Source: Macrostomum lignano
Lineage: Eukaryota
Assembly (NCBI GenBank): GCA_002269645.1
Contig: NIVC01000337.1
Coordinates: 62,001-126,000 of the forward strand
Direction of reading: 5' to 3'
Length of the DNA: 64,000 nucleotides
Position 1 is the first letter of the stretch. Every line of letters begins with the position of its first letter. The notes below the pieces were generated by a model, which searched no databases, was not told the DNA's origin, and saw nothing but the letters and a program-made list of their open reading frames with translations. Shown one piece after another: positions 4,524 through 47,563 of the stretch. The position numbers and the translations under genes were made by a program.

Positions 4524-4679
4524 CTAAAAAATGCTGGTGCCTATAGAAGTAATTTGGAATGCATTGCGTGTTCACTTAATGCATTTCTGCCATAAAACTT
4601 TAGCCAAGTTTTTTTGCTGTTTATTTGGCCTATAGAATACGCCCGTATTTATGTCTTGCACCGGTGCCTTCGGCGCCGA

Positions 4680-6806
4680 AAGGAGTGCGGCGGCGCCAAA
4701 ATGAGTGCCTGCGGAGCCAAAATGAGTGCCTGCGGCTGCAAAATGAGTGCCTGCGGAGCCAAAATGAGTGCCTGCGGCTGCAAAATGAGTGCCTGCGGCG
4801 CCGAAAGGAGTGCCTGCGGCTACAAAATGAGTGCCTGCGGCTGCAAAATGAGTGCCTGCGGCGCCAAAATGAGTGCCTGCGGCTATAAAACGAGTGCCTT
4901 CAGCGCCAAAAGGAGTGCGGCGGCGCCGAAAGGAGTGCCTGTGGCTACAAAATGAGTGCCTGCGGAGCCAAAATGAGTGCCTGCGGCTCCAAAATGAGTG
5001 CTTGCGGTGTCAAAATGAGTGCCTGCGGCTCCAAAATGAGTGCTTGCGGTGTCAAAATGAGTGCCTGCGGCTACAAAATGAGTGCCTGCGGCTACAAAAT
5101 GAGTGCCTGCGGAGCCAAAATGAGTGCCTGCGGCTGCAAAATGAGTGCCTGCGGCGCCGAAAGGAGTGCCTGCGGCTACAAAATGAGTGCCTGCGGCTGC
5201 AAAATGAGTGCCTGCGGCGCCAAAATGAGTGCCTGCGGCTATAAAACGAGTGCCTTCAGCGCCAAAAGGAGTGCGGCGGCGCCGAAAGGAGTGCCTGTGG
5301 CTACAAAATGAGTGCCTGCGGAGCCAAAATGAGTGCCTGCGGCTCCAAAATGAGTGCCTGCGGCTCCAAAATGAGTGCTTGCGGTGTCAAAATGAGTGCC
5401 TGCGGCTCCAAAATGAGTGCTTGAGGAGCCAAAATGAGTGCCTGTGGCTGCAAAATGAGTGCCTGTGGCTGCAAAATGAGTGCCTGTGGCTACAAAATGA
5501 GTGCCTGTGGCTACAAAATGAGTGCCTGCGGCTGCAAAATGAGTGCCTGTGGCTATAAAATGAGTGCCTGTGGCTACAAAATGAGTGCCTGCGGTTGCAA
5601 AATGAGTGCCTGCGGAGCCAAAATGAGTACATCTGGACCCAAAATGAGTGCTTGCGGTGTCAAAATGAGTGCCTGTGGCTACAAAATGAGTGCCTGTGGC
5701 TACAAAATGAGTGCCTGTGGCTACAAAATGAGTGCCTGTGGCTGCAAAATGAGTGCCTGCGGCTCCAAAATGAGTGCTTGCGGTGTCAAAATGAGTGCCT
5801 GTGGCTACAAAATGAGTGCCTGCGGCGCCAAAATGAGTGCCTGCGGCGCCAAAATCAGGCCTGCGGCTCTAAAATGAGTGCCTGCGGCTACAAAATGAGT
5901 ACATGCGGAGCCAAAATGAGTGCCTGCGGCTGCAAAATGAGTGCCTGTGGCTATAAAATGAGTGCCTGTGGCTACAAAATGAGTGCCTGCGGTTGCAAAA
6001 TGAGTGCCCGCGGCTACAAAATGAGTACATGCGGAGCCAAAATGAGTGCCTGTGGCTACAAAATGAGTGCCTGTGGCTACAAAATGAGTGCCTGCAGCGC
6101 TAAAATGAGTGCTTGCGGCTACAAAATGAGTGCCTGTGGCTACAAAATGAGTGCCTGTGGCTACAAAATGAGTGCCTGCGGTTGCAAAATGAGTGCCCGC
6201 GGCTACAAAATGAGTGCCTGCAGCGCTAAAATGAGTGCTTGCGGTGTCAAAATGAGTGCCTGTGGCTATAAAATGAGTGCCTGCGGCTGCAAAATGAGTG
6301 CCTGCGGCTATAAAATGAGTGTCTGCGGAGCCAAAATGAGTGCCTGTGGCTACAAAATGAGTGCCTGTGGCTACAAAATGAGTGCCTGCGGCTATAAAAT
6401 GAGTGCCTGTGACTACAAAATGAGTGCCTGCGGCTGCAAAATGAGTGCCTGCGGCTGCAAAATGAGTGCCCGCGGCTACAAAATGAGTGCCTGCGGCTGC
6501 AAAATGAGTGCCTGCGGCTGCAAAATGAGTGCCTGCGGCTGCAAAATGAGTGCCTGCGGCTATAAAATGAGTGCCTGTGACTACAAAATGAGTGCCTGCG
6601 GCTGCAAAATGAGTGCCCGCGGCTACAAAATGAGTGCCTGCAGCGCTAAAATGAGTGCTTGCGGTGTCAAAATGAGTGCCTGTGGCTATAAAATGAGTGC
6701 CTGCGGCTGCAAAATGAGTGCCTGCGGCTATAAAATGAGTGTCTGCGGAGCCAAAATGAGTGCCTGTGGCTACAAAATGAGTGCCTGTGACTACAAAATG
6801 AGTGCC
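4680..6806. repeat. 21-bp satellite (CAAAATGAGTGCCTGYGGCTA)n, left part
   Basis: About 100 units; ends at GTGCC (6802-6806) where the BEL element is inserted. Confidence 0.97.
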
Positions 6807-7599
6807 TGTTAATGAAACGAAAAATTATATGGGTTTTTCCCATATTATCGTTTCCTTCTGCCAACAGTTCAGGAAGACAACGAACAATGGACCTGATGGT
6901 AACTTTCTCTGTGTGATCTCTAGAGTCACATTCTCAAACTTCAGGCGAGGATCTTTCCTCTTCAATCAGTATATTTTATAAGCTAGCACACTGTACGCGA
7001 GCAACGAGGAATAGGAGCAGTAGGGGGAGAGAGTAGGATTTCGAGGCCCAATAGGCAGTGTCGGTCAGAGGTTGTGCATGCATCACGCGAGGGTCGCATG
7101 GCTGGGCTTCTTGCTCGCCGATCATCATGACTATTTTTAGGCATGCAGATCTTGTGCATCTGGGGAGTTGCTGCCAAGGCTGGATGCTTGTTCACGCATC
7201 ACGCGCGTGTCGGCTGATTTCTCCCATCCTCTTGCTAACCGCGCCTTCGTTTCACTTCATTAACAAGAGATTCTTAAGAACTGAGAACTCAGCACTTGGC
7301 GGCTAGCCTCGCAATTGACAATCGTAGCAGAACAAAATCACCAAGGGGGTTTCGCGCAGTCTACTCTTAAGCTAGGTATATTTATTCTCAATATAATATA
7401 TGGCGGGGTTGACACAGGCTTTAGCGGGGGGGTTGTAGGTGTGCATGACTTGCAATGTACTCGTACGTTTAACCAAATCAGAATGGGGGGTGAGAAAGTG
7501 GCGTGAGGCGCGGAGGGGGGCAGGTAAATTAGCTAGGCAAATGATGAGTAATAGTACAGAAGTACAATGAAATAAGCAAAACCTTTACTCTTCAATCCA
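6807..7599 (-). repeat. BEL 3' LTR (6807-6812 plus 7260-7599), split by a solo LTR
   Basis: Matches 17754-18095 with about 5 differences in 342 bp by eye; preceded on the minus strand by the PPT. Confidence 0.9.
6813..7259 (-). mobile_element. Solo LTR (447 bp) of a second family, probably Ty3/gypsy
   Basis: Begins TGAA, ends TTCA; flanked by TTAA at 6809-6812 and 7260-7263; absent from the 5' LTR; TATAAAA on the minus strand near 6975-6981. Confidence 0.75.
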
Positions 7600-7612
7600 T
7601 ACCTCCCTTCTT
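7600..7612 (-). other. Polypurine tract of the BEL element
   Basis: AAGAAGGGAGGTA immediately before the TGGATTG start of the 3' LTR. Confidence 0.85.
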
Positions 7613-8269
7613 GGCATGAGCACATGCCAACAACAAAGAGCACCTCGAACAAAGATCTTAAAAATGGAAACATTCAATTATTATAGTACCACGTACTTTT
7701 CAGGAACAAAGTTAAATCGCAAGGATGAAATACGCAAGACGAAATGACAAAGTGAAAATGGGATCAAATAATTAGATGCAGTAAACGGATCAGGGGGGTG
7801 TGATAAATATTCGAACTGGATTAACAACAGAGTTGAACCTAAAAAGTAGCGTACAGTGCGATGAAATGAGCAAAGGGGATAAACGCTGAAAATGGAAAAA
7901 TTAACCGAACAGAGTATGCAAAACCTCTTCGCAACAAACGCCAAAAAAGCAAAAAAACACAAAAAACACAAAAACAGAAAACTAACACAAAAAACAGACA
8001 ACAAAAACTCCCAAAAATAGACAGCAGACATGAAAAAACACAATGCGATGGAACCAAACTGGATTAATGCGCAGGGAAGCAAAGCTCTCAAAAGCCACAA
8101 AAGAAAAATGTAGCGCCAACCCATCACCAAAATAGCTTGAAACTGAAAACATCGAAAATTGAAACGCATGCAACGGCTAATCAAAGTTAAGGAAATGATC
8201 GCTAAATCGCAGATTTTTTTCAATAAATTAAAGTTTGGCCAAAAATCTCAACTACTCCGATTCTCAAGC

Positions 8270-9135
8270 CTCCCTTCGTGATTAGCGGACGCAGCCTCGC
8301 AATCGGCCTCGCGGAGGCCTTGCCAACCAGCTGCACTTTTGCGACTCTCACCCGTCTCTCCGCGGCAGCCAGCAGGTGGTCGCGAATCGAGCTGTCTCGC
8401 CTTGCATGCAGATGCGCCGCTTTGAGCTCGAGCACCTGGTCGCCATGGTCGGGTCTAATCGTCTGACCGCCGATCGTTCCTCATTCATGCTAACGACTGT
8501 GCTCCGACCAGTCACCCTTTGTCCATGCCACCAGCTGTCAACCTCCGTCAGCTGCTTCGCTGAAGTTCCTCGAGACAACGTATCGGCTGGATGGAATTCG
8601 GTCGTGACACACCTCCACTGGTCCGGATCTGTGACAAACTTGGTCTCTCCAATGCGGTTCGCACCAAACGGCTGGTCAAATTTAAAGGTGCACTCTTTCC
8701 GATCGCTTCTTAATTCTACACCAAGCGTCTTGATGGATGGCATCGGTGTCCCTTCCAATGTTACTTCGGCTACTCGATCTTCTGGTGGCACTCTGCTCAA
8801 CAGTTCTCGCGAATCGGACATCCATTTCCTGGGGTGCATGCCTGCACGCTCCCAGCGAGTCTTCAACTCTTGAAACAGCTGGATCGCCTCAGCCTCTGAC
8901 CCGACCGAATCTAAACAATTGTCCATATAGGTGGAGTTGAGAACAGCGTCTGCAGCTACGAGCGTAATGGCAGCTCTTCTTTCAGGCGTTCCGCATGCTC
9001 ACGAACTACGAACTGAGCAAGAAACGGCGAGCTCGAGTTGCCGAAAACGATGCGGTTGGTCTCAAACATTTCAACAGGCTTGCTGGAGTCCATCTCACGG
9101 CATAGAAAGCTTTTGTAGAGTGTTCTACCTCCCGT
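8270..9135 (-). pseudogene. Decayed BEL pol remnant (partial RT, fragments of RNase H and integrase C-terminus)
   Basis: ETNRIVFGNSSSPFLAQFVV, AVLNSTYMDNCLDS, KTLGV, HPADTLSRG...WWHG, VRVAKV...RPIARLRPL; frameshift, stop and large internal deletions; no DDE core. Confidence 0.9.
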
Positions 9136-9235
9136 TAAAAAAGGAAAAAAGAAGATAATCGTATAATACTACTATAAGTAAGTAAGTACACGCATGTGCG
9201 CCTAAGCTTTGAATGAATCACGCTACCAGAAAAGA

Positions 9236-9976
9236 TGTTACCAGAATAATACGCCATGAGCCATTTTCCCCTTTTAGCGCAACACGTGAATTGTCATGAT
9301 ACTATTTTGGATCAAAAACTTGTCTATAAATACAAGCGATCTGAAGCGGTACCGGAGCCATTCTCCCCACGGAAGAGGAGCGCTCCGAAGAGGAAGCCTT
9401 AGGAGGACTTCCTGATCTACCAAGTCAATCGAGACTCGGTCGAGTTGTTGCGGTAAGCCTTCCTTATTTGCGCCCGTTGTGTTAGAGACGTCTCGCTCAA
9501 GTCTATTGAGACTTGAGTCTAATTGAGTCTGTTGAGACTCTTGAGTCTGTTTAGACTCCATTGGTTGCAGTCTCCAGAAGGACTGCCCCTGATAGATCTT
9601 AGAGGACTATCAGTGGTTTCCGGAGCTATACCTAGAGTGCATAGAGGCACTGCTAGAAGAAGGAGGCTTAATTTAGACCGCAGTTTGGCGCAGGGTACCC
9701 ATTGTTGCTACGAGGCCTCTGATTGGTCCTGACGGAAGATACCGGCCGGAAGAACTTATCGGAAGTACAAGAGGAACCAGGACCAGAGCAACTGAAGAAT
9801 CAAGGCGCCTGATCTACGAGATCTACTGACAAGTTCCTAGCGAGAACTACTCAAGAAATTCAAATCCGGATTAAAGGTAATTGAATACCTTCGTTTGACT
9901 TACTGGGTTGCCTAGCTGTTGAGCTAGAAGTGATTGTTCCTTGATTATCGAAAGTCGGGTAATAAGGAACACATCA
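9236..9976 (+). repeat. Putative single LTR of the nested gypsy module
   Basis: TGTTACC start after a purine run; TATAAATA 9325-9332; ends ...ACATCA, then AT, then PBS-like TGGTGATCTCGCCC (9979). Only one copy, so boundaries are inferred. Confidence 0.5.
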
Positions 9977-10091
9977 ATTGGTGATCTCGCCCTCTCGGCA
10001 CTACTCAAACCTTGAGCAATAGCCTGGCCAAGCTATTGTAAAGTGACGACAGAGCGACTTCATTAATTTTGCGCGCACGCGTTAGAGTTAA

Positions 10092-13000
10092 CACTTAAAA
10101 CTGAAATGCAAGGATACAGACAAGACACTATTCATCTCGGAACAAGAGATACCAGTCTACGTAAAGGAAGAAGACAAACAAACCTTCTTGGCAATCATCA
10201 ATGGAACGTATCAGCAACAAGAAAAACAGAATAGAAGACGACGTGACATCGAACGTCCCAAACTGGTGTCAAACCGGCTGTTGTCAGCAAAGATAACGGC
10301 TTTGGATCACAATCTACACAACCAGTTAAACCACTTGCATCGAACACTGGTCCAGCTAACTTGCAAAATGCACGCAATCAACTTAAATTATGCCAGACAA
10401 AACTACTATGTCAACCCTACGATGACTTTTCGTAAAATCACCGGAATGACGAACGTTTTGGCAGTTCCAATATACGAGCATCTGTTGATATACAAGTGCA
10501 CGCCGATACAGCACTTAAACATCTTGCCGTCAAACACGTCAACAACCTGCTACGATAAGCCAAGGATTGAAGCGTTCTACGAAGGAAAACGAATTCAGGG
10601 ATTCTTGGACACGGTACACAACATCATCGTTGGCACCGCAATACCGAGACCTTGCACCACGGCAGTAAACTACTATCAACTGGACAATGCACTACACGTC
10701 ATCAAAACAACTGGAACGACAGCAAACGTCACAGAACCGGAAGAAATCGTCGAGGAAAACTACAACATGGAGGATTTGAAAATCCGATTCAACAGAACGA
10801 AGTATACGCCATTCGCCGATATCCAACTTGACGAGATAACACCAGGATGGACGATCAACGACTTCTTGCAAGCGTTCATCACCCAACGCAAGATGATTCA
10901 CCAGCTGTTCACAAGAAAGGACAAAGGAACCGGGACAGGAAGATTTCCCGTCCTTGTTTCAATGGACAGCGCCATCAAATCATTTTGGACAAATAGCTTC
11001 TGGGAGCTGCTCAATGGAAGAGGCAGTCTCTATCAAGGATTCATCTTCGACGGTGCTTGCATTGTGTGGATTGTCACGGCAATCTTCATCATTTCATCGA
11101 TCGTACGGTGCTTCAGTCAAACTTGTCCAAGAGCTAAGAAGACAGTGAATGCCATAATGCAAAGAACGACAACGGAAAGCGACAACAGTTTAGAACTAAC
11201 AGAAACTGCACATTGTGAGGTTCAAGGGCAACCGACACTAGCAACGCGGCTATATCCATCGATTCCGACAACACCAACGGCACCAAGGATACAACCACCC
11301 AACTATCAAGCAGAACAGCACGAGCCAAAATGGCCGGAAAACTACGTCTGTACGCTACACGCCGAGATTGGCAAAGCAATGGCTCAGGTCATTGTCAACA
11401 ACTTACCATGTCGAGCACTACTGGATTCAGGCAGCTCGATCACAGTCATCTCGCAACAATTATGCAACAAGCAACGACTCGCGGTACGACCAGCAGCAAT
11501 CGCAGTTGCAGGAGCAGGAGGACATTCACTCAACATCCTAGGAAAAGCAGATATCGACTTGAAAATTGCTAATAAACAGCTGACGGTCCCGACGTACATC
11601 ATCGACAGACTACCAAACCAAGACGCCATCGTTGGAATCGACACGTTCAAGCAGCTTCAACTACCATTAACCTTCGACTTCAACAAGCAAACGTTTAGGA
11701 TCGACACGGTGGAGCAACCGCTGATCAACCAGATTCGAGTACTACCGAAAGTAACTCTGCAGCAAGATGTCATTATCCAGCCTGAAAGCGCATGCTGGGT
11801 CAGAGCGAAAACGACCAGCGCGGCAGAAGAAGCAATGATATTTGATCCACACAGGAGAGTCACGGCAAAACATCAAATCATGATGCCTACGGCACTAGTG
11901 CTGGTTGCAAAGGATAAGCAACTGCCAGTACAAATCTTCAACCCGAACACAGAAACGGTTCATCTACGACAAGGAAAGTGCATCGGTCATCTCAACACCC
12001 AAGCATCGGTTATGCTGATTGAACAAGCGACTCCACGACTAACAGAGGAAGAATTTCAAAAGAAGATCAATTTGGATGACAGCCCGATTACGGAACAGCA
12101 AAAGAGGAAAGTTCGACAGCTGTTGTGGAAGAACAACGAAGCCTTCTGCAATCATGATTACGACATCGGACGAGCCAAGGACATCAAACAGGAAATCAAA
12201 CTTCTGCCGCACACGGAACCAATTCAGTGCAAGCCGTACCCGATCGCCAAGCATCTGCAACAACACTTTGACGAAATCATCGATAAAATGCTAAAGCACG
12301 GCATCATCAGCAAAGCTATTTCGGCTTACTCCTCACCGTGCCTACTGGTACAGAAGAAGGAGACAAACGAAAGACGACTCGTATGCGACTTCAGACTGTT
12401 GAACAAGTACATACCGACGGATCAGCAAAGCCTACCGAAGATCTCCGAACTACTAGCAAAGCTCAACACGGCAAAATTGTTCACGGTGTTCGACCTACGT
12501 CATGGATTTTGGCAAATTGAAATCGAGAAAGAGTCACGACAGTACACGGCTTTCAAAACCTACAATGGACAAGTATACGAGTACAATCGATCGCCGATGG
12601 GACTTAGCAACAGCCCAGCAACGATGAGTCGACTAACAGCATACATGCTAGCAGGATGCACGAACCTGCTGCACTATGTCGACGACATTTTAGCCTACGG
12701 AGAGGATTTCGAGCGACTCTACGAAGCTACGGAGAAGGCCCTAGCGCTCATTCAACGCCAAGGTTTGAAGCTACAACCAACTAAATGCAAATTCTTCCGA
12801 GACAACGTGCGTTACCTGGGACATCAGGTGACAGCCAAAGGAATCTCACCGGACCCAGACAACGTGGAAAAGGTGAAGAAGTTTCCTACGCCAACCAGTA
12901 TAACGAAGGTCCAATCATTCCTTGGACTTGCGCAATACTTCAGGAAGTTCTTACCTAACTTCGCAAAGACAGCAAAGCCACTGTACGACCTGCTCAAGTT

Positions 13001-14888
13001 CGACAAATGGAAGCAAGACAACTGGACACAGAGACAACAGGAAAGTTTCGACGAAATCAAACGACAGCTGACATCAGACGCACTGCTACAGCATCCGGAC
13101 TTCGACAAGCCCTTCATCATCGAGACAGACGCCTCAGGAACGGGACTCGGAGCAGTCCTACTACAGGAAACCGAGGACAAGAAGGAACGACCTATTGCCT
13201 ACGTCAGTCGAGCACTCAAACCAAATGAAACAAAGTGGTCAGCTACGGAACGAGAGCTACTAGGAGTCTTGTTCGCCCTGCGACAGTTTCATTACTACAT
13301 CTATGGTTCTCCAATACAGACGATAGTACGCACGGATCATGCACCATTGACCTACGTCGTAACTACAAAAGGACAGACCAACAACCGACTCATCAGAATG
13401 ACACTCAAGATCCAGGATTACAACTACAAACTCGTCTACAAACCAGGAATTACCAACAAAGCCGCGGACGCCCTGTCAAGAGCCTATGAAGTCAACGCCA
13501 TTCATCCAATCCCTAACATCAAGGAGTTGGTGGATGAAACCGAGCGCGACAACTTCTACCAAGCGGTTAAAGACGACGACAAGAACATCAAACTCAGTCC
13601 CATGGAACGAAAATTCCTACGCAAGCAACGACAACACCTAACAATCAATAAGTCACGGCTCTACTGGATGAGCGACAATAAACCCAAGATCTACATACCA
13701 TATTCGTTTCGGCAAGCAATTCTCAACGAGCTACACGACAACCCACTCGCTGGACACCTGTCGGCAGCAAAGACCATCGCGAGAGTGGAACAATACTACT
13801 TTTGGCCAACTATGTACGGCGACATCAAGCAGTATTGCAACAACTGCCATTCATGTGCTGCATCAAAGACAGGACGACGACAGAAACCGCAGCTACAGTC
13901 CATTCCGAAGTCGACTACAATGGACTGTCTAAGCATCGACATCACCGGACCGCTACCACCGAGCTGTCTCCAGGGCATCGCCTACACCTACATTCTAACC
14001 GCCTTGGATATCTTCTCGAAGTTTGCTATCGCCATACCGATACCGGACATCACAGCTCAGACAGTGGCAATGAGTTTCTTCAACGAAATCATTTGCAAGT
14101 ACGGCACGCCGAAGAACCTCACATCGGACAACGGATCGCAGTTTACATCGCAACTGTTTCAGCAAGTCGTAAGGATTCTCAACATTACGCAGATCTACAC
14201 ATCGACCTACAATCCGAAGGCAAACATGGTTGAACGGTTTCACCGCAACCTGCACGAGATGATTACACATTTCGCGCACCAACAGCCGGAAGACTGGATC
14301 ATCTACCTGCAATCTGTAACAATGGCCTACAACAGCGCTATTCATCGATCAACGGACAATACGCCATTCTTCCTAATGTTTGGACGAGACTTCCAACCGC
14401 CGAATCTGCTCGCACAGCAATTGCTACCATCGCAGTACGTGGAAGTACCGACTTCCATTCAGAAATTCGTCACGCAACTACACCTCGCATGGAAGATCGC
14501 CAAGCACAACATTGACAACCAGGTGGCTCTGACCACCGGCAACGACGCGAGATCGACAACCCTGACGGCCGGCGACATCGTCTACCTACACTACCCGCCA
14601 CAGCAGACGCATAAACATGCACAGAAGTACAAAGGACCCTATCGAGTGGTCCAACTAACGTCACCAACAACGGCACGCCTGGCTAATGTACAAGATCCAC
14701 ATCAGCACCAGTTCTACGTACACATTCATCGACTAAAGAAGATCAACACTGACACAGCGACGTTTCTACCGACATTAGACAACGCTGATCGCACGCGTTC
14801 AACGAACCGCCACATCGCGACGAAGCACGAGGAGACTCAAACGACAGATGTGAGCCAGCCACATGGCTACAACCTACGACCACGCTAG
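10092..14888 (+). CDS. Ty3/gypsy Env(gB-like, N-truncated)-TM-PR-RT-RNaseH-IN single ORF, no gag
   Basis: Open from 10092 (after TAA 10089-10091). RRRR furin site 10233-10244; 4 ectodomain Cys and N-glycosylation sequons; TM about 11040-11105; LLDSGS (11424); DLRHGFWQ, YVDD (12675); TDASG/TDH/ADALSR; HHCC; DITGP/SDNGSQF/VERF; GPY; terminal YNLRPR. Confidence 0.92.
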   Translation, partial: HLKLKCKDTDKTLFISEQEIPVYVKEEDKQTFLAIINGTYQQQEKQNRRRRDIERPKLVSNRLLSAKITALDHNLHNQLNHLHRTLVQLTCKMHAINLNYARQNYYVNPTMTFRKITGMTNVLAVPIYEHLLIYKCTPIQHLNILPSNTSTTCYDKPRIEAFYEGKRIQGFLDTVHNIIVGTAIPRPCTTAVNYYQLDNALHVIKTTGTTANVTEPEEIVEENYNMEDLKIRFNRTKYTPFADIQLDEITPGWTINDFLQAFITQRKMIHQLFTRKDKGTGTGRFPVLVSMDSAIKSFWTNSFWELLNGRGSLYQGFIFDGACIVWIVTAIFIISSIVRCFSQTCPRAKKTVNAIMQRTTTESDNSLELTETAHCEVQGQPTLATRLYPSIPTTPTAPRIQPPNYQAEQHEPKWPENYVCTLHAEIGKAMAQVIVNNLPCRALLDSGSSITVISQQLCNKQRLAVRPAAIAVAGAGGHSLNILGKADIDLKIANKQLTVPTYIIDRLPNQDAIVGIDTFKQLQLPLTFDFNKQTFRIDTVEQPLINQIRVLPKVTLQQDVIIQPESACWVRAKTTSAAEEAMIFDPHRRVTAKHQIMMPTALVLVAKDKQLPVQIFNPNTETVHLRQGKCIGHLNTQASVMLIEQATPRLTEEEFQKKINLDDSPITEQQKRKVRQLLWKNNEAFCNHDYDIGRAKDIKQEIKLLPHTEPIQCKPYPIAKHLQQHFDEIIDKMLKHGIISKAISAYSSPCLLVQKKETNERRLVCDFRLLNKYIPTDQQSLPKISELLAKLNTAKLFTVFDLRHGFWQIEIEKESRQYTAFKTYNGQVYEYNRSPMGLSNSPATMSRLTAYMLAGCTNLLHYVDDILAYGEDFERLYEATEKALALIQRQGLKLQPTKCKFFRDNVRYLGHQVTAKGISPDPDNVEKVKKFPTPTSITKVQSFLGLAQYFRKFLPNFAKTAKPLYDLLKFDKWKQDNWTQRQQESFDEIKRQLTSDALLQHPDFDKPFIIETDASGTGLGAVLLQETEDKKERPIAYVSRALKPNETKWSATERELLGVLFALRQFHYYIYGSPIQTIVRTDHAPLTYVVTTKGQTNNRLIRMTLKIQDYNYKLVYKPGITNKAADALSRAYEVNAIHPIPNIKELVDETERDNFYQAVKDDDKNIKLSPMERKFLRKQRQHLTINKSRLYWMSDNKPKIYIPYSFRQAILNELHDNPLAGHLSAAKTIARVEQYYFWPTMYGDIKQYCNNCHSCAASKTGRRQKPQLQSIPKSTTMDCLSIDITGPLPPSCLQGIAYTYILTALDIFSKFAIAIPIPDITAQTVAMSFFNEIICKYGTPKNLTSDNGSQFTSQLFQQVVRILNITQIYTSTYNPKANMVERFHRNLHEMITHFAHQQPEDWIIYLQSVTMAYNSAIHRSTDNTPFFLMFGRDFQPPNLLAQQLLPSQYVEVPTSIQKFVTQLHLAWKIAKHNIDNQVALTTGNDARSTTLTAGDIVYLHYPPQQTHKHAQKYKGPYRVVQLTSPTTARLANVQDPHQHQFYVHIHRLKKINTDTATFLPTLDNADRTRSTNRHIATKHEETQTTDVSQPHGYNLRPR

Positions 14889-15008
14889 AGTTTAGAGAAC
14901 AACCCCGTGTAGTGACCGGGATAAAGAATAGCACTACAGCTTCGCAAGCTTGTCGTAAAAGGCGACTAATCCGAGCGACACAAAGACAGCGACAAATTGA
15001 CGACAATT

Positions 15009-15434
15009 ATGGGCAACGCACTGTCAAAACAGGCGCCCCAGCCTCAGCAGCTATATGACTGCCCGATATGTTTAACTGATGACTTGGCTGTCAAGCCACC
15101 GACTATTTGCATCAATGGACATAAAGTTTGCGGACAATGTTTAAGTGATTCACACTATATTCAGCCCTGGCAGAGTTGTCCCCTCTGTAGAGATAGTTTG
15201 CGACAATGTGCCTATTGTTATTCTTGGCGCACGTTTCAATATTGTAACCACCAACATTTTATTTGCATGCACTGTTTGAAGCAAACCGCTAGTAGGGGCA
15301 TTATAGGATGCCCCTTATGTAACAGTATGCCCCGCGAAAACACTTTTAAGAAATGGTGTCGGATTATACCTGACCCAGCGCGTTGTTTATCCGTTTACAC
15401 TATGCACACCTTAACCGCTATGAGTATCGGCTGA
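15009..15434 (+). CDS. Tandem RING-finger protein (141 aa) with N-myristoylation motif; accessory ORF of the gypsy module
   Basis: MGNALSKQ start; CPIC-x12-CINGHKVCGQC-x12-CPLC followed by CAYC-x8-CNHQHFICMHC-x11-CPLC; C-terminus lies at the junction with BEL sequence. Confidence 0.8.
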   Translation: MGNALSKQAPQPQQLYDCPICLTDDLAVKPPTICINGHKVCGQCLSDSHYIQPWQSCPLCRDSLRQCAYCYSWRTFQYCNHQHFICMHCLKQTASRGIIGCPLCNSMPRENTFKKWCRIIPDPARCLSVYTMHTLTAMSIG

Positions 15435-17724
15435 GTATCTCATAGTTATTCGAGCGAACTTTCGCCTCTGGCTTCCACGGAATTCCCACCTGGTATCGGC
15501 CGTTTGTTAGCTTTAATGAAGACTTGGCTTGCTGGACTGCAGCTTGCTCATCCGCTGTCCAATTTTGATCTTGAGCTGGCCGGATTTCTTCGACTTCCCA
15601 GAACTTGTGCAGCACTGGTGACAGCATCTCCTCGCTGGTGACACAGAAAAAGGTGCTGGCCAAGTTTTTCTGATGCTGAATCTGTTCTACTGGACCCACA
15701 CCTGTCCATCCAAGGGGAGTCAAACGTGCCTGTGGCTCCCCAGGGCCACCGCGAACTTCTCGGTAGGACACGTGTAACTCCGCATGATCCACTCCTATCA
15801 GCAGGTCTATGAGATGCGGTGCATGGAGCTGAGGAAATGGAATGCGCTCCAGATGTTTCCAATCTGCTGCCGTCGTCTGCCAATCCGTAGCCTTCAACTT
15901 CCCGGTGACGCTGTCTGTCGTGAATGCCGTGATCGGACGACTCAGACTTCCATCTACACTTTCGAGCGTCATCGTAACCGGAGCTGTCAAGAATGTCTCT
16001 GTCTGTCCGTTCAAAACGTTCACTTTCACTTGCTCCACATTGCCCTCCAGTCCCAGAGCTTCCGCAATCTCCGCATTCACATACGTCCTTGTACTCGCGT
16101 CGTCCAACAGTGCGTTCACCTTCACTACACGGCCGCCTGCCTTGAGAACTACTGGAACTGTTCGCAGCGACGTTGCACTTCCACTTCCTGCCATCATAGT
16201 TACGGCGGCTCCTTTGCGACCCGACTCAGCGTTCTTTTTGCCTCCTTCGGTCGGAGAATTCTTCTTCGACTCAGTTTTTGCAGCCTCGTCAGAATGCAGC
16301 AAGCGGTGGTGAAACTTGTTGCATTCACCTATTCCACATCGGCGTCCATGACGGCATATCCGAGCAGCATGACCGCGAGCTAAGCAGCAAAAGCATGATT
16401 TCGAATCTTGCGCAGCCTTCCACCGATTTTCAATTGACAGCTGTCTAAATGTTGGACACTTCCACAGCTCATGTTGATCTTGACACAGTATACAAGATTT
16501 TGACGGAGACGCTTGTTGATGATCTGCAAGAAACGTTTTGGACCGCGTCTCCTTCTTAACTTTCTCTTCACTCGTCACACCGTGCACAATCTCCATGGCT
16601 TCTGTCTGGAAAGCGGCCTCCATCAGCACCCACTCACGTAACATCTTTACGCTCTCTTGCCTATGTCCTTCGAATAGCCAACGCCGGTAACGCGCCACCA
16701 TCTGCTCAGGGAGCTTCTTCTGCAACTTTGCGTACAACAACCCGTCAGTCAATTCTGAGACCTTACCAGACTCTTCGAGATTTACAACTGCGACATCTAA
16801 CAGATTAGAGAATTGCTTAAGCTCTTTTGCATTGGTGGAGCGGATGGGTGGAAAGTTATCGAGCTCTTCAAGATACAGAGCGATACGTCGGCGGCTGCCC
16901 CCAAATTCGCGTTCCAATCTGTCTTTGGCAGCCTCGTAAGCAGCGGCAGAGTGACCCAGATGTTCGACTAATTTCAAAGCCGGCCCTTGAAGATATTGAC
17001 GGAGTTGAAGCAATTTGAACTCCGGTGTGGCAGGAGCTCTATCAATACAAGCAGTAAAGGCGGCTTTCCAAGATTCGTACTGCTGCTTTTCGCCGCCGAA
17101 CTTTGGGATCTCTACACGCCGAAGCATCTTCCAAAGATCCTTTGCTAACTCGGCTTCACCGCTGCTAGTCTGAGAATGGCCCGCCTCACTTACAGAGTCA
17201 TCAATGCTACTGGCACTCACAACCGGCATTGCTGTAGCCGCCGTCGCCGCCGTCGCCGTCGTTGCAGTCGTCGCAGTCGCCGCAGTCGCCGCAGTCGCGG
17301 CAGTCGCGGCAGTCGCCGCAGGCGCAGCAGTCACGGCAGTCTGATGGGCAGTGATTAATTGAGTGACACATTTCATAGTGTCTTGAAACTGCTGCTCCAC
17401 TTGATCCAGCTCGTCCAGAAGTTTGTCTCGAGCTTCTTCTGTGGCTTCTTGCTGAAGGAGCTCATCATAGAATTCGTCGAGCAGCTTCACGCACTCTTCG
17501 TGTGCTGCAGTGGCTGCATCGCACGCTTGCTGGATCGCTCCATGATCGGTTTCGCTCTGTAGCAACAGTACCAGCCGGTTTCGAGTCCTAGTTGCTGCAG
17601 ACTTCGTTCTTGCCTTCACTCGTCGAAACTGTTCGATGCGAAGCCGCTCCTCAGTGCTGATCTCTTTTTCTTGTTCATCTTCTGAGCAGCCAGTCTGCTG
17701 CTGATTCAATTCGTGGCTGGCCAT
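15418..17724 (-). CDS. gag: BEL/Pao Gag-protease (768 aa), truncated at the insertion junction
   Basis: IPKFGG...WKAAF...YLQGPA (DUF1759-type); three Zn knuckles; LLDDAS protease; YQVGIPWK...NNYE just before the junction; no internal stops. Confidence 0.93.
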   Translation of the reverse strand: MASHELNQQQTGCSEDEQEKEISTEERLRIEQFRRVKARTKSAATRTRNRLVLLLQSETDHGAIQQACDAATAAHEECVKLLDEFYDELLQQEATEEARDKLLDELDQVEQQFQDTMKCVTQLITAHQTAVTAAPAATAATAATAATAATATTATTATAATAATAMPVVSASSIDDSVSEAGHSQTSSGEAELAKDLWKMLRRVEIPKFGGEKQQYESWKAAFTACIDRAPATPEFKLLQLRQYLQGPALKLVEHLGHSAAAYEAAKDRLEREFGGSRRRIALYLEELDNFPPIRSTNAKELKQFSNLLDVAVVNLEESGKVSELTDGLLYAKLQKKLPEQMVARYRRWLFEGHRQESVKMLREWVLMEAAFQTEAMEIVHGVTSEEKVKKETRSKTFLADHQQASPSKSCILCQDQHELWKCPTFRQLSIENRWKAAQDSKSCFCCLARGHAARICRHGRRCGIGECNKFHHRLLHSDEAAKTESKKNSPTEGGKKNAESGRKGAAVTMMAGSGSATSLRTVPVVLKAGGRVVKVNALLDDASTRTYVNAEIAEALGLEGNVEQVKVNVLNGQTETFLTAPVTMTLESVDGSLSRPITAFTTDSVTGKLKATDWQTTAADWKHLERIPFPQLHAPHLIDLLIGVDHAELHVSYREVRGGPGEPQARLTPLGWTGVGPVEQIQHQKNLASTFFCVTSEEMLSPVLHKFWEVEEIRPAQDQNWTADEQAAVQQAKSSLKLTNGRYQVGIPWKPEAKVRSNNYEILSRYS

Positions 17725-17731
17725 TTACCTG

Positions 17732-17749
17732 AACCACGCTCTGCTACCA
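17732..17749 (-). other. Primer binding site, initiator tRNA-Met type
   Basis: TGGTAGCAGAGCGTGGTT, 4 nt after the 5' LTR; complementary to the metazoan tRNAiMet 3' end pattern AACCNNNCUCUGCUACCA. Confidence 0.85.
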
Positions 17750-17753
17750 AAAA

Positions 17754-18095
17754 TATTAACAAGAGATTCTTAAGAACTGAGAACTCAGCACTTGGTGGCT
17801 AGCCTCGCAATTGACAATCGTAGCAGAACAAAATCACCAAGGGGGGTACACGCAGTCTACTCTTAAGCTAGGTATATTTATTCTCAATATAATATATGGC
17901 GGGGTTGACACAGGCTTTAGCGGGGGGGTTGTAGGTGTGCATGACTTGCAATGTACTCGTACGTTTAACCAAATCAGAATGGGGGGTGAGAAAGTGGCGT
18001 GAGGCGCGGAGGGGGGCAGGTAAATTAGCTAGGCAAATGATGAGTAATAGTACAGAAGTACAATGAAATAAGCAAAACCTTTACTCTTCAATCCA
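17754..18095 (-). repeat. BEL 5' LTR (342 bp)
   Basis: Near-identical to the 3' LTR; terminal CA reads TA in this copy. Confidence 0.92.
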
Positions 18096-19108
18096 GTGCC
18101 TGTGGCTGCAAAATGAGTGCCTGTGGCTACAAAATGAGTGCCTGTGGCTCCAAAATGAGTGCTTGCGGTGTCAAAATGAGTGCTTGCGGTGTCAAAATGA
18201 GTGCCTGCGGCTCCAAAATGAGTGCCTGCGGCTCCAAAATGAGTGCTTGCGGTGTCAAAATGAGTGCCTGCGGCTCCAAAATGAGTGCCTGCGGAGCCAA
18301 AATGAGTGCCTGCGGCTACAAAATGAGTGCCTGTGGCTACAAAATGAGTGCCTGCGGCTGCAAAATGAGTGCCTGCGGCTACAAAATGAGTGCCTGTGGC
18401 TACAAAATGAGTGCCTGTGGCTACAAAATGAGTGCCTGTGGCTACAAAATGAGTGCCTGCGGCTGCAAAATGAGTGCCTGTGGCTACAAAATGAGTGCCT
18501 GTGGCTACAAAATGAGTGCTTGCGGTGTCAAAATGAGTGCTTGCGGTGTCAAAATGAGTGCCTGCGGAGCCAAAATGAGTGCCTGCGGCTGCAAAATGAG
18601 TGCCTGCGGAGCCAAAATGAGTGCCTGCGGAGCCAAAATGAGTGCCTGCGGCTACAAAATGAGTGCCTGTGGCTACAAAATGAGTGCCTGTGGCTGCAAA
18701 ATGAGTGCCTGTGGCTACAAAATGAGTGCCTGTGGCTACAAAATGAGTGCCTGTGGCTACAAAATGAGTGCCTGTGGCTACAAAATGAGTGCCTGCGGCT
18801 GCAAAATGAGTGCCTGCGGCTACAAAATGAGTGCCTGTGGCTACAAAATGAGTGCCTGTGGCTGCAAAATGAGTGCCTGTGGCTACAAAATGAGTGCCTG
18901 TGGCTACAAAATGAGTGCCTGCGGCTGCAAAATGAGTGCCTGCGGCTGCAAAATGAGTGCCTGCGGCTACAAAATGAGTGCCTGTGGCTACAAAATGAGT
19001 GCCTGCGGCTGCAAAATGAGTGCCTGCGGCTGCAAAATGAGTGCCTGCGGCTACAAAATGAGTGCCTGTGGCTACAAAATGAGTGCCTGTGGCTACAAAA
19101 TGAGTGCT
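18096..19108. repeat. 21-bp satellite, right part (same array as 4680-6806)
   Basis: Same unit, resumes in register at the TSD. Confidence 0.97.
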
Positions 19109-32480: not shown

Positions 32481-34854
32481 TGTTCTTCAGCTCCCCCCCC
32501 CACAATAGTTTGTCCCTCAATTATCCAGAATTGGCTGTTGCAATGCTCTTCCAACTCAATTTAATTACATTTAAATGCAGAGATAAAGGCCAGAAACCCG
32601 GCTGTTTCGCATCCCCAGTTCCGGGATCTTCGTAGCTCATAAATTTTGAGTCTCTCGCAAAGTCGAGATTGGAGCTTCGCTTAGCCCCCCCCCACCAGCC
32701 AGTCCCACCCCGCATGGTGCGTGACGATCCGGGAGAATTTCCACTTCCTGTCGCTGACTCCGCCCCCCGTGGAGCAGCAAGGCTGGATCCCCAAGTCTCT
32801 TATCTGAGCTCTGGCCGCACCGGTTCCAATATCGATGATCAAAGTTTCCAGCTGCAACGTGACTTTTAAGCAAAGTAACCTGCGGGGGGTTCGGGTTGGC
32901 CCAATTTGAGTTCGACTCAGCGTCTTTAAGAGGCTTAGCAGGTCTTACACAAAGCATTACAGAGTCATTTTATAATCTTCACTTTCTCCAGTCCAACTCA
33001 GCAATGCCTATGCAAATGACCCGAGTCTCTGGGTATTAGCAGCTCCTAAGCTTGTTGGCGCGTGTTGGCGGTGAGCAAACATCCCCCCACGCTCTCGCCC
33101 GACAACCTTGCTGCCATCAAAGACTCAAATCAATTGGGAGAATGCAGTCGGAGCTGCTTCTATCGTAGGAATTTCTGCATCAAGCTGCTACAAGCGGCCA
33201 TCTGCTGCTGCGTCAGGCGCCTTGCAAGTCTTTGTTCTGACTTCACCACTCCGGCAGTCTAAAGCGACCGTGCTGCGACAGTTGCTAGGCCGGAATCCGG
33301 GCCGACTCGGCTGCTTTTGCGGCCTCTGTATATGCATAATTAGACAGCTGAAAGAGCTAGACCGACTTTTCTGCATGCTGCTTTTCTAAAGTTTTTTCTA
33401 TGCTACTTTTTAGACTGCAGGCTTTGTCAGCCTCCGTGTCTCTCTGTGGGCTAAGCTTGACCCAATTTAGCTGGTATGGCTAATCTTGAAGAGAGACAGC
33501 AATGCCGGGTAGCTGCTGCTGCTGGGGAGGGAGAGGCTGACGGATTGTTTGCATTATATAATTTTATAGCCCGGACACGGAATCCGGACGCGCAGTCATT
33601 AAATACGGTTGGGCTATATATTAAACATGGCTAGCAGTTTAAATCAGCCCTACAATTAACTTCATGGGGGCTGCGGCTATCTCTACTGGATGTCTGGGCA
33701 ATCTGCGATCTCCCATTATGAGGATGCAGATCAATTTTGGAAGCCAAACAAACTGTATTTGACACGACGCATTAAGTTTGGTTGCTGCAAAATCCATTAG
33801 TGAGAAAATTTTATCTGTTCGAAGTTAAAGAAACTTTTTCACACCAAGACTTTCGACAAAGACCTTAAAATAATTCATCCTTCCCCCGCGGGAGTTTATG
33901 AGGCGCCTTGTGGTTTTTGGGAGGCCATTTTTGCGGCAGTTTTTGCTGTTTTTATAGCAGGTTGCACCGCGCTACATGGGTGGGTCATGGGCGACTGCCA
34001 TACGGTTAGGCATTAAAAAGCTCGATGCTTGAAGGCATAATCAACACAGAAGGCATTAAACCTAATTGAATTGCAACCTGAATTCGATGTCAATTTCTAA
34101 ATGGTCTTGGTCTTTGTTCGCCACACTGTCTCCTAGCTAGGCCCCCCCACAGATACTATAAACACTAGATAGGCCACTCAGGCTAATTTTCACAACACGA
34201 CAGTTTACTCTACTTTCTGCTTAGTAGTAGTAAAAACATTTTAGCGTTATTTATATTTTTTAAAAATAAAAAAAACAGATGAATGCAATGCAGCAATTGT
34301 ATTGATTTTTTTGCAAAAAGAAACTTATAATTATACTTTCCACAATTCAAAGCAACATTGTGAATGCTTTAGATTGCATAGAAGGCTATATTATTGCAGT
34401 CAACTATTGTATATTTAGCAAATACGAGCTATATCATATACTCCATAATCCATATTCGTGTAGCAAAATAGAAAGATTTCTCATCTTAATCAGCTCATCT
34501 GTTTGTGAAACTCGCAGCGTGCTGTTGAAGAACAGGGTCGCCAGTCGCCCTTGTTCAGAGGCAGCATTCAGAACGGCCCAACAGATGAAAAAAACTGGCG
34601 AATGCGCCACTTCAAGGTCCAGGGATGTATCCGATGGAGAGCCAATCCTCAGTGGTTTCGTAACAGGCAGCCGATAAGCAGCAGGACTTTTGTGGTGCAG
34701 CTGCAATGAGCTGCTGATGAGATGACATCCTTTGACCAGAGCACCCCTGACTGCGAGCGCCCTGCCGCCCAGTCGACCGCTGGAAGCTGCGCTAGCCACG
34801 CCTCCACAGTCCATGGATGCACGACTGCGCTGCACTTGCCTTGACCATCGAATG

Positions 34855-35160: not shown

Positions 35161-37224
35161 TCGTTGCCTCTAGCGCTTGGAACCCGCGAATCGGCTGCAG
35201 AGGTGAGAGCTTTCAGCCGCAACAGCTGTTCTCGGCGCAGAATCTGGTAGCCGAAGGTTGCTCTGCCACAGCACTGGCAGCAGGCAAGTCGCAGGCTCGG
35301 CTGCAGATAGATTGCTAATTGGCCCCAGCACTGGAGGGTACATGTCGTCTGCCTCTTCATCGTTTATCAGTCCTTTGCACAGAGGGTAGCTGGTCTATTT
35401 GAACGAGCCGAGGCAGCATCAACTCTTGGTGTGGGATTGCGTCCCAGCGAAAACAGATGTCTTGCACATCCGTGGCACTTTGTAAGGCAGCAGTAGGCCT
35501 CGTCCATAAAGTGCAAGCTGAACACACGGAGGCCCCGTGATTTAATTGTTTATAAAGGTCAATATCCACGCTCCTGCAGTAGCTGCTGCCAGCGCTTCGC
35601 CAGTGTCATCTTTTGGTAATTTATGCATTCGCAACGGATTTTTCTTTCTCGGATGTTAATAGCACTAGTACAAAGCTCGTGCAAGTGGGAGCACAGCAGT
35701 GGTTCGAATCAAAACATTTCTCGAGTACAAGATTAGATAGAAAAGCTAGTATGCACTCGAACTTTCTTTAACTCTGACTCTTGTCCTGTTCATCTATATA
35801 AGCTTGTATTTAAGCACGATTCGCCACCCCCAAATTTTCTAACCCACAACCTCTCAACCCCCACCCCTAACCCAGGCTAGCTATGTGCAGTCCTTTATTT
35901 TCTATCCCACCACCAGTGGGCCTAAATTATCGATCCACTCACCCTGCCTTATACGAAACTGATATTAACCCTATTCCAGACTACCCCCCTTCCTCCACTT
36001 TGAAAGATAGCGGCATTGCACACTGTCTGTCGCGTCTTAATGTACACCATTACTGCACAAAACAAGTTAGTTGTTTATGGCGTTAGCAAAACGATGTCTT
36101 AAAAACAGTCACTCGATTTGTCTAATTTAGCAAATAATACTGTTGCTTCCTTTCATTGCTACTAAGCAGAAAGTAGAATAAAAAACTTGCCCAGAAAATT
36201 AGCCTGAGTGGCCTATCTAGTGTTTATAGTATCTGTGGGCCCCCCTAGGCATGACCGTTTTGACCATATCTTCCCCCGAGGGTGCTGTAAAAAAGTTCCA
36301 TTGCGCAGGCCGCAGATTAAATCCAAAAATCAATTTTCTTTCATTTCCATAGCACAGAGCAGTTCAATTTACACAGCGGCTTGGTGCAAAAGCTAATGTA
36401 ATGTATAATTCTATTTCTACTAGAAAACTTGCTTGGCTGTTAATCAAGATTCATATGATTTTTTAAATGATCTCATCTGTTGCACATTGTATGATGCATG
36501 GCGTGTACTCTGTTACACCCACAAACGTTGTCCATGTACTGTAGATGCTCTGTAAACTGCTTCTGTCTGTTGCGTGTGTTTTGCTGATGCTGGCTGACTA
36601 GAGAGTACTAATTTTGCCGACTCCAAAATATCTCTCTCTTAGGTTATCCAATTAAGATTGTTTCTACGATTCTTGCATTATACAAGCCGTATAGTAGCTA
36701 TGAGAAGTGATTTTAAGTTCAACGAGCGTCATTTATAAACCATTTGTTTTCATGTCGGTCGCAGAAACTTTAAAAAACTTTCTGGAAACTTGAAGAGTGC
36801 TATATATGCTCGTACGTAGCTTCATTTGCTAGCTGTGCATGAGTATAAAGGCCAACATTGCTGAATTTGTGCAGAGAAAACGGACAGTATTCGAACTTGT
36901 GTTTTTATTTGGCAAAATCCAGTAAAAATGTATTTTGAGCTTTAGCTAATCATTCTAAAGGTCTGCAAAACATATATTATAGTATTAATAAATTATAGTT
37001 TGTTTTTTAAACATGAGAAGTCTTGAACAGGTATATTTATAAAAAATGAATCTTATAGAACTTCAACTTCAGCAACTTGAGTGTTCAGTTACAGTTTGGA
37101 TTAAACTATGAGAACCTCCAGATCCAAGGAAGGCGATTTATCACAAAACAAATCTTACATTCTACTTACAGTAGTACTTTATGAAGTATAAAACAATAAT
37201 ACGACAGTACATGCAGGTACCTGA

Positions 37225-46976: not shown

Positions 46977-47029
<53 letters not shown>

Positions 47030-47064
47030 GCCTGTCTGTCTGTCTGTCTGTCTGTCTGCCTGCC

Positions 47065-47105
<41 letters not shown>

Positions 47106-47124
47106 GCCTGTCTGTCTGTCTGCC

Positions 47125-47165
<41 letters not shown>

Positions 47166-47248
47166 GCCTGTCTGTCTGTCTGCCTGTCTGTCTGTCTGCC
47201 TGTCTGTCTGTCTGCCTGTCTGTCTGTCTGCCTGTCTGTCTGTCTGCC

Positions 47249-47289
<41 letters not shown>

Positions 47290-47326
47290 GCCTGTCTGTC
47301 TGTGTGTGCCTGTCTGTCTGTCTGCC

Positions 47327-47367
<41 letters not shown>

Positions 47368-47400
47368 GCCTGTCTGTCTGTCTGTCTGTCTGTGTGTGCC

Positions 47401-47489
<89 letters not shown>

Positions 47490-47492
47490 GCC

Positions 47493-47563
<71 letters not shown>

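What the first reader, a model, noticed from the sequence alone, without database searches (positions are those of the whole stretch)
10092..14888. Gag-less Ty3/gypsy ORF with a gB-like envelope fused in frame UPSTREAM of protease-RT-RNaseH-integrase
Seen: one 1598-codon frame with an RRRR furin site, a helical segment ending in LTC, then NP...YKC...TCY..P...GFLD...I...PC spacing, glycosylation sequons, a TM helix (about 11040-11105), about 90 aa of linker without capsid or zinc-knuckle motifs, then a complete catalytically intact pol. Established: class III (herpes gB/chuvirus-like) glycoproteins have been captured by LTR elements, in the cases I know as a separate or post-integrase ORF. Inference: here Pol would be made as the cytoplasmic tail of a membrane glycoprotein and be recruited to budding sites by Env instead of Gag, then released by its own protease. 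This copy lacks a signal peptide and the pre-furin half that should carry the fusion loops (first ATG 10368).
Basis: partly seen in the sequence, partly recalled or inferred. Interest (0 to 1): 0.92.

Follow-up and report, generated by a model that had tools for sequence, protein, structure and literature searches.

The report
Broken copy of known gag-env-pol retrotransposon
This is a damaged copy of an already catalogued flatworm retrotransposon family that normally makes capsid, a herpes-gB-like envelope and its replication enzymes as one long protein; the capsid gene is missing only because this one copy lost a 3.3-kb piece.

Summary
The ORF is real: a class III (gB-like) envelope half runs in frame into an intact Ty3-type PR-RT-RNaseH-integrase. 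'Gag-less' is not a design. The window copy is a 5' LTR and PBS followed by a 3.3-kb deletion that removed gag and the first half of env; its 3' end is also gone. The junction occurs once in the genome, against 76 LTR-PBS junctions. 22 of 23 other copies keep the segment, and this copy's private changes are neutral (12 of 15 non-synonymous). Intact relatives are one ~2,500-codon gag-env-pol frame under purifying selection, so the env-pol fusion is native, not made by the deletion. GAG-ENV-POL gB-type Ty3/gypsy elements are published, and a listed Macrostomum element matches in LTR length (863), PBS offset (865) and PBS sequence. Two side findings were not found in my literature searches. ESCRT late-domain-like motifs (LYPSI, PTAP, PPxY) sit in the Env tail and recur in 6 of 13 distant relatives. 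Double-RING accessory ORFs under selection follow integrase. Both functions are inferred.

The parts
9114..9976 (+). 5' LTR, 863 bp, TG...CA, with a TATA-like box and AATAAA-type signal
   Evidence: same sequence at both ends of other copies
9979..9990 (+). primer-binding site, 865 nt from the LTR start
   Evidence: 76 LTR-PBS junctions in G000; same 12-mer and offset as the published row
9991..10096 (+). remnant of the 5' leader, ending at the deletion
   Evidence: 99.7% match to L021 up to 10096
10096..10097 (.). junction of a ~3,300-bp internal deletion (rest of leader, gag, acidic spacer, env signal anchor and env N-terminal half); no clear microhomology; single copy in the genome
10097..11108 (+). 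C-terminal half of a class III gB-like Env: end of domain II, furin site (10233-10244), central helix, domain IV, stem, TM helix (~11037-11108)
   Evidence: fold tested on the undeleted ectodomain of L006
11109..11363 (+). Env cytoplasmic tail / env-protease linker, ~85 aa, under purifying selection
   Evidence: dN/dS 0.17-0.27
11250..11306 (+). cluster of late-domain-like motifs LYPSI, PTAP, PPNY; the aromatic-Pro bonds here and at KWP (11328) may instead or also be protease cleavage sites
   Evidence: function inferred
11364..11669 (+). aspartic protease (LDSG at 11421-11432)
12216..13421 (+). reverse transcriptase (YVDD 12675) and RNase H (TDASG 13125)
13695..14888 (+). integrase (HHCC, DDE), ending YNLRPR-stop
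15009..15434 (+). accessory ORF with two C3HC4 RING fingers, cut off after codon ~140 (222 aa in the matching subfamily)
15429..15437 (.). second break: element 3' end (rest of RING ORFs, PPT, 3' LTR) and ~388 bp of the host BEL element are missing; single copy
7259..9113 (-). host BEL/Pao element, 3' part (LTR ~7259-7599 and RT remnant)
15437..18095 (-). host BEL/Pao element, 5' part (gag-protease with DUF1759; LTR ~17755-18095)

Best explanation
The window holds a dead, doubly deleted copy of a young multi-copy Ty3/gypsy (Metaviridae) family whose intact form is LTR - leader - one ~2,500-aa Gag-Env(gB-like)-Pol polyprotein - one or two double-RING ORFs - LTR. It inserted into a BEL/Pao element, then lost 3.3 kb (gag and half of env) and its 3' end. 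How the intact family works: SHOWN - one frame, domain order, two hydrophobic helices flanking a gB-like ectodomain, purifying selection on env, tail, pol and RING. INFERRED from standard membrane topology - Gag is made first in the cytosol, the first helix acts as an internal signal anchor, the ectodomain enters the ER lumen, the second helix stops transfer, and tail plus Pol return to the cytosol. Gag and Pol thus start tethered on the same membrane face, at about 1:1:1 with Env. Signal peptidase, furin and the element's own protease then separate the parts, and tail motifs probably help recruit ESCRT for budding. The window copy has no gag, no signal anchor, no PPT and no 3' LTR, so it cannot replicate by itself.
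For: Junction 10096/10097 found at 1 place in G000 with up to 2 mismatches, against 76 LTR-PBS junctions. PBS-to-env-junction distance is 130 nt here and 3,208-3,436 nt in 22 of the 23 other copies; one had no PBS match. L021 has one open frame from Gag through a CCHC knuckle to the env signal helix (zf-CCHC 21.2 bits over the 20.8 cut-off). 11 of 19 other loci run from ectodomain start to integrase in one frame and 16 of 19 keep TM and protease in frame. 10 family places among 79 listed matches have open frames of 2,370-2,538 codons. A sister family (66.5% aa identity) has Gag-Env-Pol in one 2,502-codon frame plus two RING ORFs. dN/dS between lineages: env 0.05-0.10, tail 0.17-0.27, pol 0.00-0.11, RING 0.16-0.24. 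Window-private changes: 12 of 15 non-synonymous, 11.5 expected if neutral, p 2e-6 against the between-lineage ratio. Env fold: HSV-1 gB E 5e-16, mononega/chu-type G E 3e-20, gB Z 10.2 against 6.6 for the best non-gB chain. Pol nearest Ty3-G, E 1.4e-91. Same order in distant proteins P0004, P0011 (Gag-Env-Pol), P0008, P0014, P0017. Published: GAG-ENV-POL with gB-type env in Nematoda, Bryozoa, Platyhelminthes; row Mlig_errantivirus_2 has LTR 863, PBS at 865, same PBS.
Against: 3 of 19 other loci have a frame break between TM and protease, two at the same place, so a separated form cannot be excluded for a minority. The Env model is low confidence (mean pLDDT 54.8, pTM 0.36) and TM-scores to gB are only ~0.33. 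Pfam found no capsid family in the L021 Gag: capsid identity rests on position, the knuckle and the relative P0011. No listed contig in four runs bridges the window's own junction (tables cut), so the deletion and the private changes could be assembly errors rather than mutations. Topology, processing and budding were not tested. I could not align my sequence to the published element's sequence; the match rests on species label, LTR length, PBS and env type.
Confidence: 0.93

Rival explanations
1. One reading: a gag-less element whose Pol is packaged by Env in place of Gag.
For: The window frame has no gag; Pol follows the TM helix in frame; the tail has late-domain-like motifs.
Against: Junction unique; 22 of 23 other copies keep the segment; neutral private changes; no signal anchor, PPT or 3' LTR in this copy.
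Confidence: 0.02
2. The env-pol fusion is a one-off product of deletion between separate env and pol ORFs.
For: The copy does carry deletions; 3 of 19 other loci break between TM and protease.
Against: The deletion lies upstream of the furin site, not between env and pol. 16 of 19 loci, the sister family and distant proteins keep the fusion. The linker is under purifying selection and an independent contig spans it.
Confidence: 0.01
3. The deleted form is an assembly artefact (mis-join inside a repeat) and does not exist in the animal.
For: Single occurrence; in runs X1, X4 and X7 loose ends on both sides of the junction, and in X2 on the env side, carry the undeleted family sequence.
Against: A single-copy variant of a family with 76 or more copies would normally be dropped from contigs. 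A second independent break also removes ~388 bp of the host BEL element, as expected of real post-insertion decay.
Confidence: 0.12
4. The conserved tail motifs are protease cleavage sites (aromatic-Pro) that release Pol, not ESCRT late domains.
For: An aromatic-Pro bond lies 32-38 aa before the protease Asp in 6 of 8 elements examined, and W replaces Y in two others further upstream. Retroviral proteases cut aromatic-Pro bonds (established knowledge, recalled). PTAP is absent from one of two sister-family tails.
Against: P[ST]AP, which has no aromatic-Pro bond, occurs in 4 of 13 distant tails against 0.10 expected (0 of 20,000 shuffles) and in 20 of 20 family copies. The two roles are not exclusive.
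Confidence: 0.4

Closest known systems
Platyhelminthes_Rhabditophora_Mlig_errantivirus_2 (Chary and Hayashi, eLife 2026, PMC13524379, Supplementary file 1)
   Same: Species label, HSV/gB-type env, LTR 863 bp, PBS start 865, identical 12-nt PBS, GAG-ENV-POL order for the phylum, multi-copy (16 intact copies listed). Very probably the same family.
   Different: The window copy is a deleted, 3'-truncated derivative. The paper's main text has no occurrence of RING, late domain, ESCRT, budding, polyprotein, fused or in-frame, so the single frame, tail motifs and RING ORFs are not discussed there as far as those terms show.
Non-canonical nematode endogenous retroviruses (NERV; Sacco et al. 2022, J Gen Virol 103:1739)
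   Same: Flipped env-pol order in a metavirus with an RNA-virus-like glycoprotein (as cited in PMC13524379). A continuous gag-env-pro-pol ORF and extra ORFs are recalled from memory; the paper was not held.
   Different: Nematode hosts; GAG-ENV-POL elements are not monophyletic in the eLife POL tree. Double-RING accessory ORFs are not part of what I recall.
BEL/Pao elements with gB/chuvirus-like env (Anakin of mosquitoes, seen in a search listing; Tas of Ascaris, recalled)
   Same: Class III glycoprotein captured by an LTR element; P0012 is such a BEL element and matches this env weakly.
   Different: Belpaoviridae pol, env after integrase.
Saccharomyces Ty3 (Metaviridae)
   Same: PR-RT-RH-IN order; best solved-structure match, E 1.4e-91.
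   Different: No env; Gag-Pol made by frameshift (established knowledge).

Membership tests
Metaviridae (Ty3/gypsy) | pol order protease-RT-RNase H-integrase | tested here: met
Metaviridae (Ty3/gypsy) | RT/IN closest to Ty3-type rather than retroviral or BEL enzymes | tested here: met
   Ty3-G E 1.4e-91, caulimoviral 8.5e-45, foamy 1.5e-39; similarity ranking, no tree built
Metaviridae (Ty3/gypsy) | TG...CA LTRs, PBS, short target-site duplication | tested here: met
   5' LTR and PBS in the window; two LTRs 99.8% alike and a 4-bp TSD in the copy L022/L017; 3' LTR lost in the window copy
Metaviridae (Ty3/gypsy) | gag with capsid and nucleocapsid | tested here: inconclusive
   absent from the window copy; in relatives CCHC knuckle met, capsid not recognised by Pfam in L021, Retrotrans_gag only in distant P0011
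GAG-ENV-POL gB-type 'ancient errantiviruses' | env between gag and pol | tested here: met
GAG-ENV-POL gB-type 'ancient errantiviruses' | HSV/gB-type ectodomain flanked by signal or TM helix and a TM helix | tested here: met
   two hydrophobic helices in L006; fold matches
GAG-ENV-POL gB-type 'ancient errantiviruses' | placement in the published POL tree / sequence identity to Mlig_errantivirus_2 | not tested
   the supplements held gave no sequence for that element; match by LTR length, PBS offset and PBS sequence only
Class III viral fusogen | gB-like fold with PH domains, long central helix and domain IV | tested here: met
   Z 10.2/10.1/10.0 to HSV-1, HCMV, PRV gB (rmsd 12.3/5.4/3.5 over 381/243/160 residues); low-confidence model
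Class III viral fusogen | trimer formation and membrane fusion | not testable with these tools
   needs experiment; the window copy lacks the N-terminal half
Arenavirus Z-like myristoylated RING matrix protein (accessory ORF) | conserved N-terminal Gly for myristoylation | tested here: not met
   MG start in this family, but not in the second RING ORF nor in the five sister-family ORFs

The most novel reading that the evidence does not exclude
In gag-env-pol retroelements the ESCRT budding signals sit in the Env cytoplasmic tail in front of Pol rather than in Gag, so a single membrane-threaded polyprotein assembles and buds an enveloped particle in a way unlike retroviruses or insect errantiviruses. 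The Macrostomum lineage adds its own selected, tandem double-RING (probable E3 ligase) accessory genes.
Probability: 0.35. Interest if true: 0.6.

Novelty: already known. Interest (0 to 1): 0.24.

Why it matters
The headline claim (a gag-less, Env-packaged retroelement) is an artefact of one decayed copy, and the architecture is in print. What remains useful: Macrostomum is a transgenic, RNAi-tractable animal with a young, high-copy gag-env-pol family. That makes an open question testable: how a single Gag-Env-Pol polyprotein is threaded, cut and budded, and whether such elements move between cells. The tail motifs and the RING ORFs give two concrete handles that my searches did not find described.

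Tried and rejected
Sequence search of the undeleted ectodomain against PDB chains: nothing (best E 0.67). Word-indexed homolog searches found only the near-identical Macrostomum protein and nothing for the RING ORF (93 candidates); short eukaryotic ORFs are often uncalled, so this is weak. ESM Atlas: env nearest to Monjiviricetes-fusion clusters at 0.89 and RING ORF to viral C3HC4 proteins at 0.91, both with low recognition, leads only. RING model (pLDDT 85.6): no Foldseek viral match at E 0.001, best VIA Z 6.9, uninformative; Lassa Z appears at Z 4.4 among ordinary RINGs. Arenavirus-Z-like matrix idea rejected because the N-terminal Gly is not conserved. The ~110 aa between protease and RT looked dUTPase-like by eye; Pfam did not support it. 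Expression: no RNA holder listed; contig data cannot show splicing or level, and no clean GT-AG joint was listed within 8900-15700. TTAA-flanked DNA-transposon reading of the ends rejected once LTRs were mapped. PMC4604429 (term search and section 9) and PMC12801592 (first of six parts and term search) say nothing on env or RING. Literature searches for RING or late domains in such elements returned nothing relevant (listings only); subscription journals are not covered. Earlier scan findings: none. No tree was built. bioRxiv supplements were closed and figures were not visible; they may show the RING ORFs or single frame.
Full report
OBSERVATION. Pfam gives a sub-threshold Monjiviricetes_fusion match at aa 64-219 (E 3.9e-5, 22.3 bits against a 27 cut-off), then protease, RT, RNase H and integrase. 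Pol is nearest to Ty3-G among solved structures (E 1.4e-91). A 97%-identical protein is labelled Macrostomum lignano. A contig from an independent run spans TM, tail and protease start without a gap.

WHAT SURROUNDS IT. Upstream lie an 863-bp LTR (9114-9976) and a PBS at 9979. The unit sits inside a minus-strand BEL/Pao element (LTRs ~7259-7599 and ~17755-18095, 98.8% alike), itself between arrays of a 21-bp satellite. A search of the genome G000 listed 24 places matching the internal part (24 of 741 candidates scored, so a lower bound), and the LTR-PBS junction occurs 76 times. I fetched 20 loci plus upstream stretches of 2 copies.

THE COPY IS DELETED. Window 9114-10096 matches the 5' LTR and leader of L021 (99.7%), and 10097 onward matches mid-env in the other copies. 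About 3,300 bp lie between these points in relatives. The PBS-to-junction distance is 130 nt here and 3,208-3,436 nt in 22 of the 23 other copies; the remaining one had no PBS match. The junction sequence occurs once in the genome. A second unique break at 15429-15437 removed the element's 3' end and ~388 bp of the host BEL element. Against six close copies the window has 15 private changes, 12 non-synonymous (11.5 expected if neutral), unlike the between-lineage pattern of 90 non-synonymous to 353 synonymous (p 2e-6). It is therefore decaying, or carries sequence errors. Against this: no listed contig in four runs bridges the junction (676 pieces not shown), so an assembly artefact is not excluded.

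THE INTACT FAMILY. The missing segment holds the rest of the leader, a Gag with a CCHC knuckle, a long acidic spacer, a hydrophobic signal anchor and the first half of env, all in one frame. Of 19 other loci, 16 keep TM and protease in one frame, 11 are open from the start of the ectodomain to integrase, and 3 break in the tail. Among 79 listed env matches, 10 family places have open frames of 2,370-2,538 codons, and two places of a sister family (63% env identity) have 2,502-2,503. One of these, L023, shows Gag-Env-PR-RT-RH-IN in a single frame followed by two RING ORFs. Pairwise dN/dS across three comparisons is 0.05-0.10 for env, 0.17-0.27 for TM plus tail, 0.00-0.11 for pol parts and 0.37-0.43 for the acidic spacer. 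A profile-free search of 1.84 billion representatives gave 15 hits. Among them P0004 (a second Macrostomum family) and P0011 are Gag-Env-Pol, P0008 (Panagrolaimus) Env-Pol, P0014 knuckle-Env-protease, P0017 Env-protease, P0010 Gag-Env, and P0012 a BEL element with env after integrase.

THE ENVELOPE. The natural undeleted ectodomain of L006 folded at low confidence (pLDDT 54.8, pTM 0.36). It still matched herpesvirus gB throughout the top of the PDB list (E 5e-16, TM ~0.33), mononega-, chu- and entomopox glycoproteins in BFVD (E to 3e-20), and gB at Z 10.2, 10.1, 10.0 and 9.4 against 6.6 for the best unrelated chain. It is a class III fusogen by fold; fusion activity is untested.

MECHANISM. 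Shown: one frame, domain order, two hydrophobic helices around the ectodomain, selection on all parts. Inferred from general membrane topology: Gag is cytosolic, helix 1 is an internal signal anchor, the ectodomain is luminal, helix 2 returns tail and Pol to the cytosol. Gag and Pol are then co-tethered to the membrane that carries Env, and signal peptidase, furin and the viral protease separate them. The window copy lacks gag, signal anchor, PPT and 3' LTR and cannot replicate alone.

SIDE FINDING 1, TAIL MOTIFS. The tail holds LYPSI, PTAP and PPNY within 19 residues, resembling the ALIX, Tsg101 and Nedd4 late-domain types (labels from established knowledge). PTAP is in 20 of 20 loci and PPxY is kept as PPNY or PPTY while the upstream tail varies. 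Leaving out the window protein, and one hit that ends before its TM, canonical motifs occur in 6 of 13 distant tails (shuffle mean 0.50; 0 of 20,000) and P[ST]AP in 4 of 13 (mean 0.10); density is 7 in 1,207 aa against 6 in 14,101 outside. The env parts of the five motif-bearing hits compared are 20-36% identical to each other and to the window. Against: 7 of 13 lack them; one of two sister tails has no PTAP; the test followed the observation; and the aromatic-Pro motifs lie 32-38 aa before the protease Asp in 6 of 8 elements, as a protease cleavage site would.

SIDE FINDING 2, RING ORFS. After integrase, copies carry one short (113-144 aa where both RINGs are intact) or two longer (222 and 210 aa) ORFs with tandem C3HC4 RINGs. 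15 of the 16 zinc ligands are invariant in 9 aligned sequences, dN/dS is 0.16-0.24, and tandem paralogues at 27-44% identity occur at other places in G000, two of them checked and lying behind sister-family env or pol. The model is confident (pLDDT 85.6) but has no informative match beyond RING. An E3 ligase acting against host defence or in budding is the likeliest role (inference). A myristoylated matrix role is not supported because the Gly is not conserved.

WHAT IS KNOWN. Chary and Hayashi (PMC13524379; I read the abstract, the first parts of two results sections, term passages and supplement rows; also passages of the bioRxiv version) report that Nematoda, Bryozoa and Platyhelminthes elements carry gB-type env in GAG-ENV-POL order, and credit Sacco et al. 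2022 for nematodes. Their table lists Mlig_errantivirus_2 with 16 copies, LTR 863, PBS at 865 and the same 12-mer as here. Sacco et al. was not held; its continuous-ORF description is recalled. The eLife main text has no hit for RING, late domain, ESCRT or budding, and three library searches found nothing on these features.

VERDICT. Real ORF, correct envelope call, wrong inference about gag. It is a decayed copy of a published family: already known, interest 0.24, with a 0.35 chance that the tail-borne budding signal is a real and undescribed feature of this class.

Noticed in passing
window 15009-15434; L002-L020 ~6400-7780; L023 8142-9447; L025: Tandem double-C3HC4-RING accessory ORFs behind integrase, one in a short subfamily, two in a long one, up to three in the sister family; under purifying selection; no homolog found outside this genome.
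   Followed up: yes
window 11250-11306: LYPSI-PTAP-PPNY cluster in the Env tail, with similar motifs in distant gB-like Env tails.
   Followed up: yes
L006 1-640 (deleted in the window): A long acidic, fast-evolving spacer (over 200 aa, dN/dS ~0.4) between the zinc knuckle and the env signal anchor; replaced by unrelated Pro/Thr-rich sequence in the sister family.
   Followed up: partly
window ~11670-12110: About 110-150 aa between protease and RT look dUTPase-like by eye and are strongly conserved, but Pfam gives no match.
   Followed up: partly
L006 versus L017, L018, L020: dS differs more than ten-fold between neighbouring regions (0.02-0.79), pointing to frequent recombination between sub-lineages of the family.
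   Followed up: no
L007, L014 (and L015): Two copies share a frame break at the same place in the Env tail, separating env from pol; inherited mutation, assembly error or a minor separated form.
   Followed up: no
G000 C1130, C2121, C87, C669, C2447: Several family copies or fragments cluster on the same contigs (five LTR-PBS junctions on C1130), possibly nests or piRNA-cluster-like regions.
   Followed up: no
window 4664-6808 and 18095-19107; L021 ~3480: The host BEL element lies between arrays of a 21-bp satellite; the 5' flank of another family copy (L021) resembles the same satellite.
   Followed up: no
P0004: A second, distant Macrostomum gag-env-pol family (2,852 aa) has a long Thr-rich mucin-like insert inside the Env ectodomain.
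   Followed up: no
window 45334-46586, within frame 44200-47967: A 15/30/45-bp repeat encoding EQERL-type units inside a 1,255-codon open frame; not examined.
   Followed up: no
window 34137-34191 and 36194-36248: 55-bp inverted repeats 2 kb apart, likely the ends of a DNA transposon.
   Followed up: no
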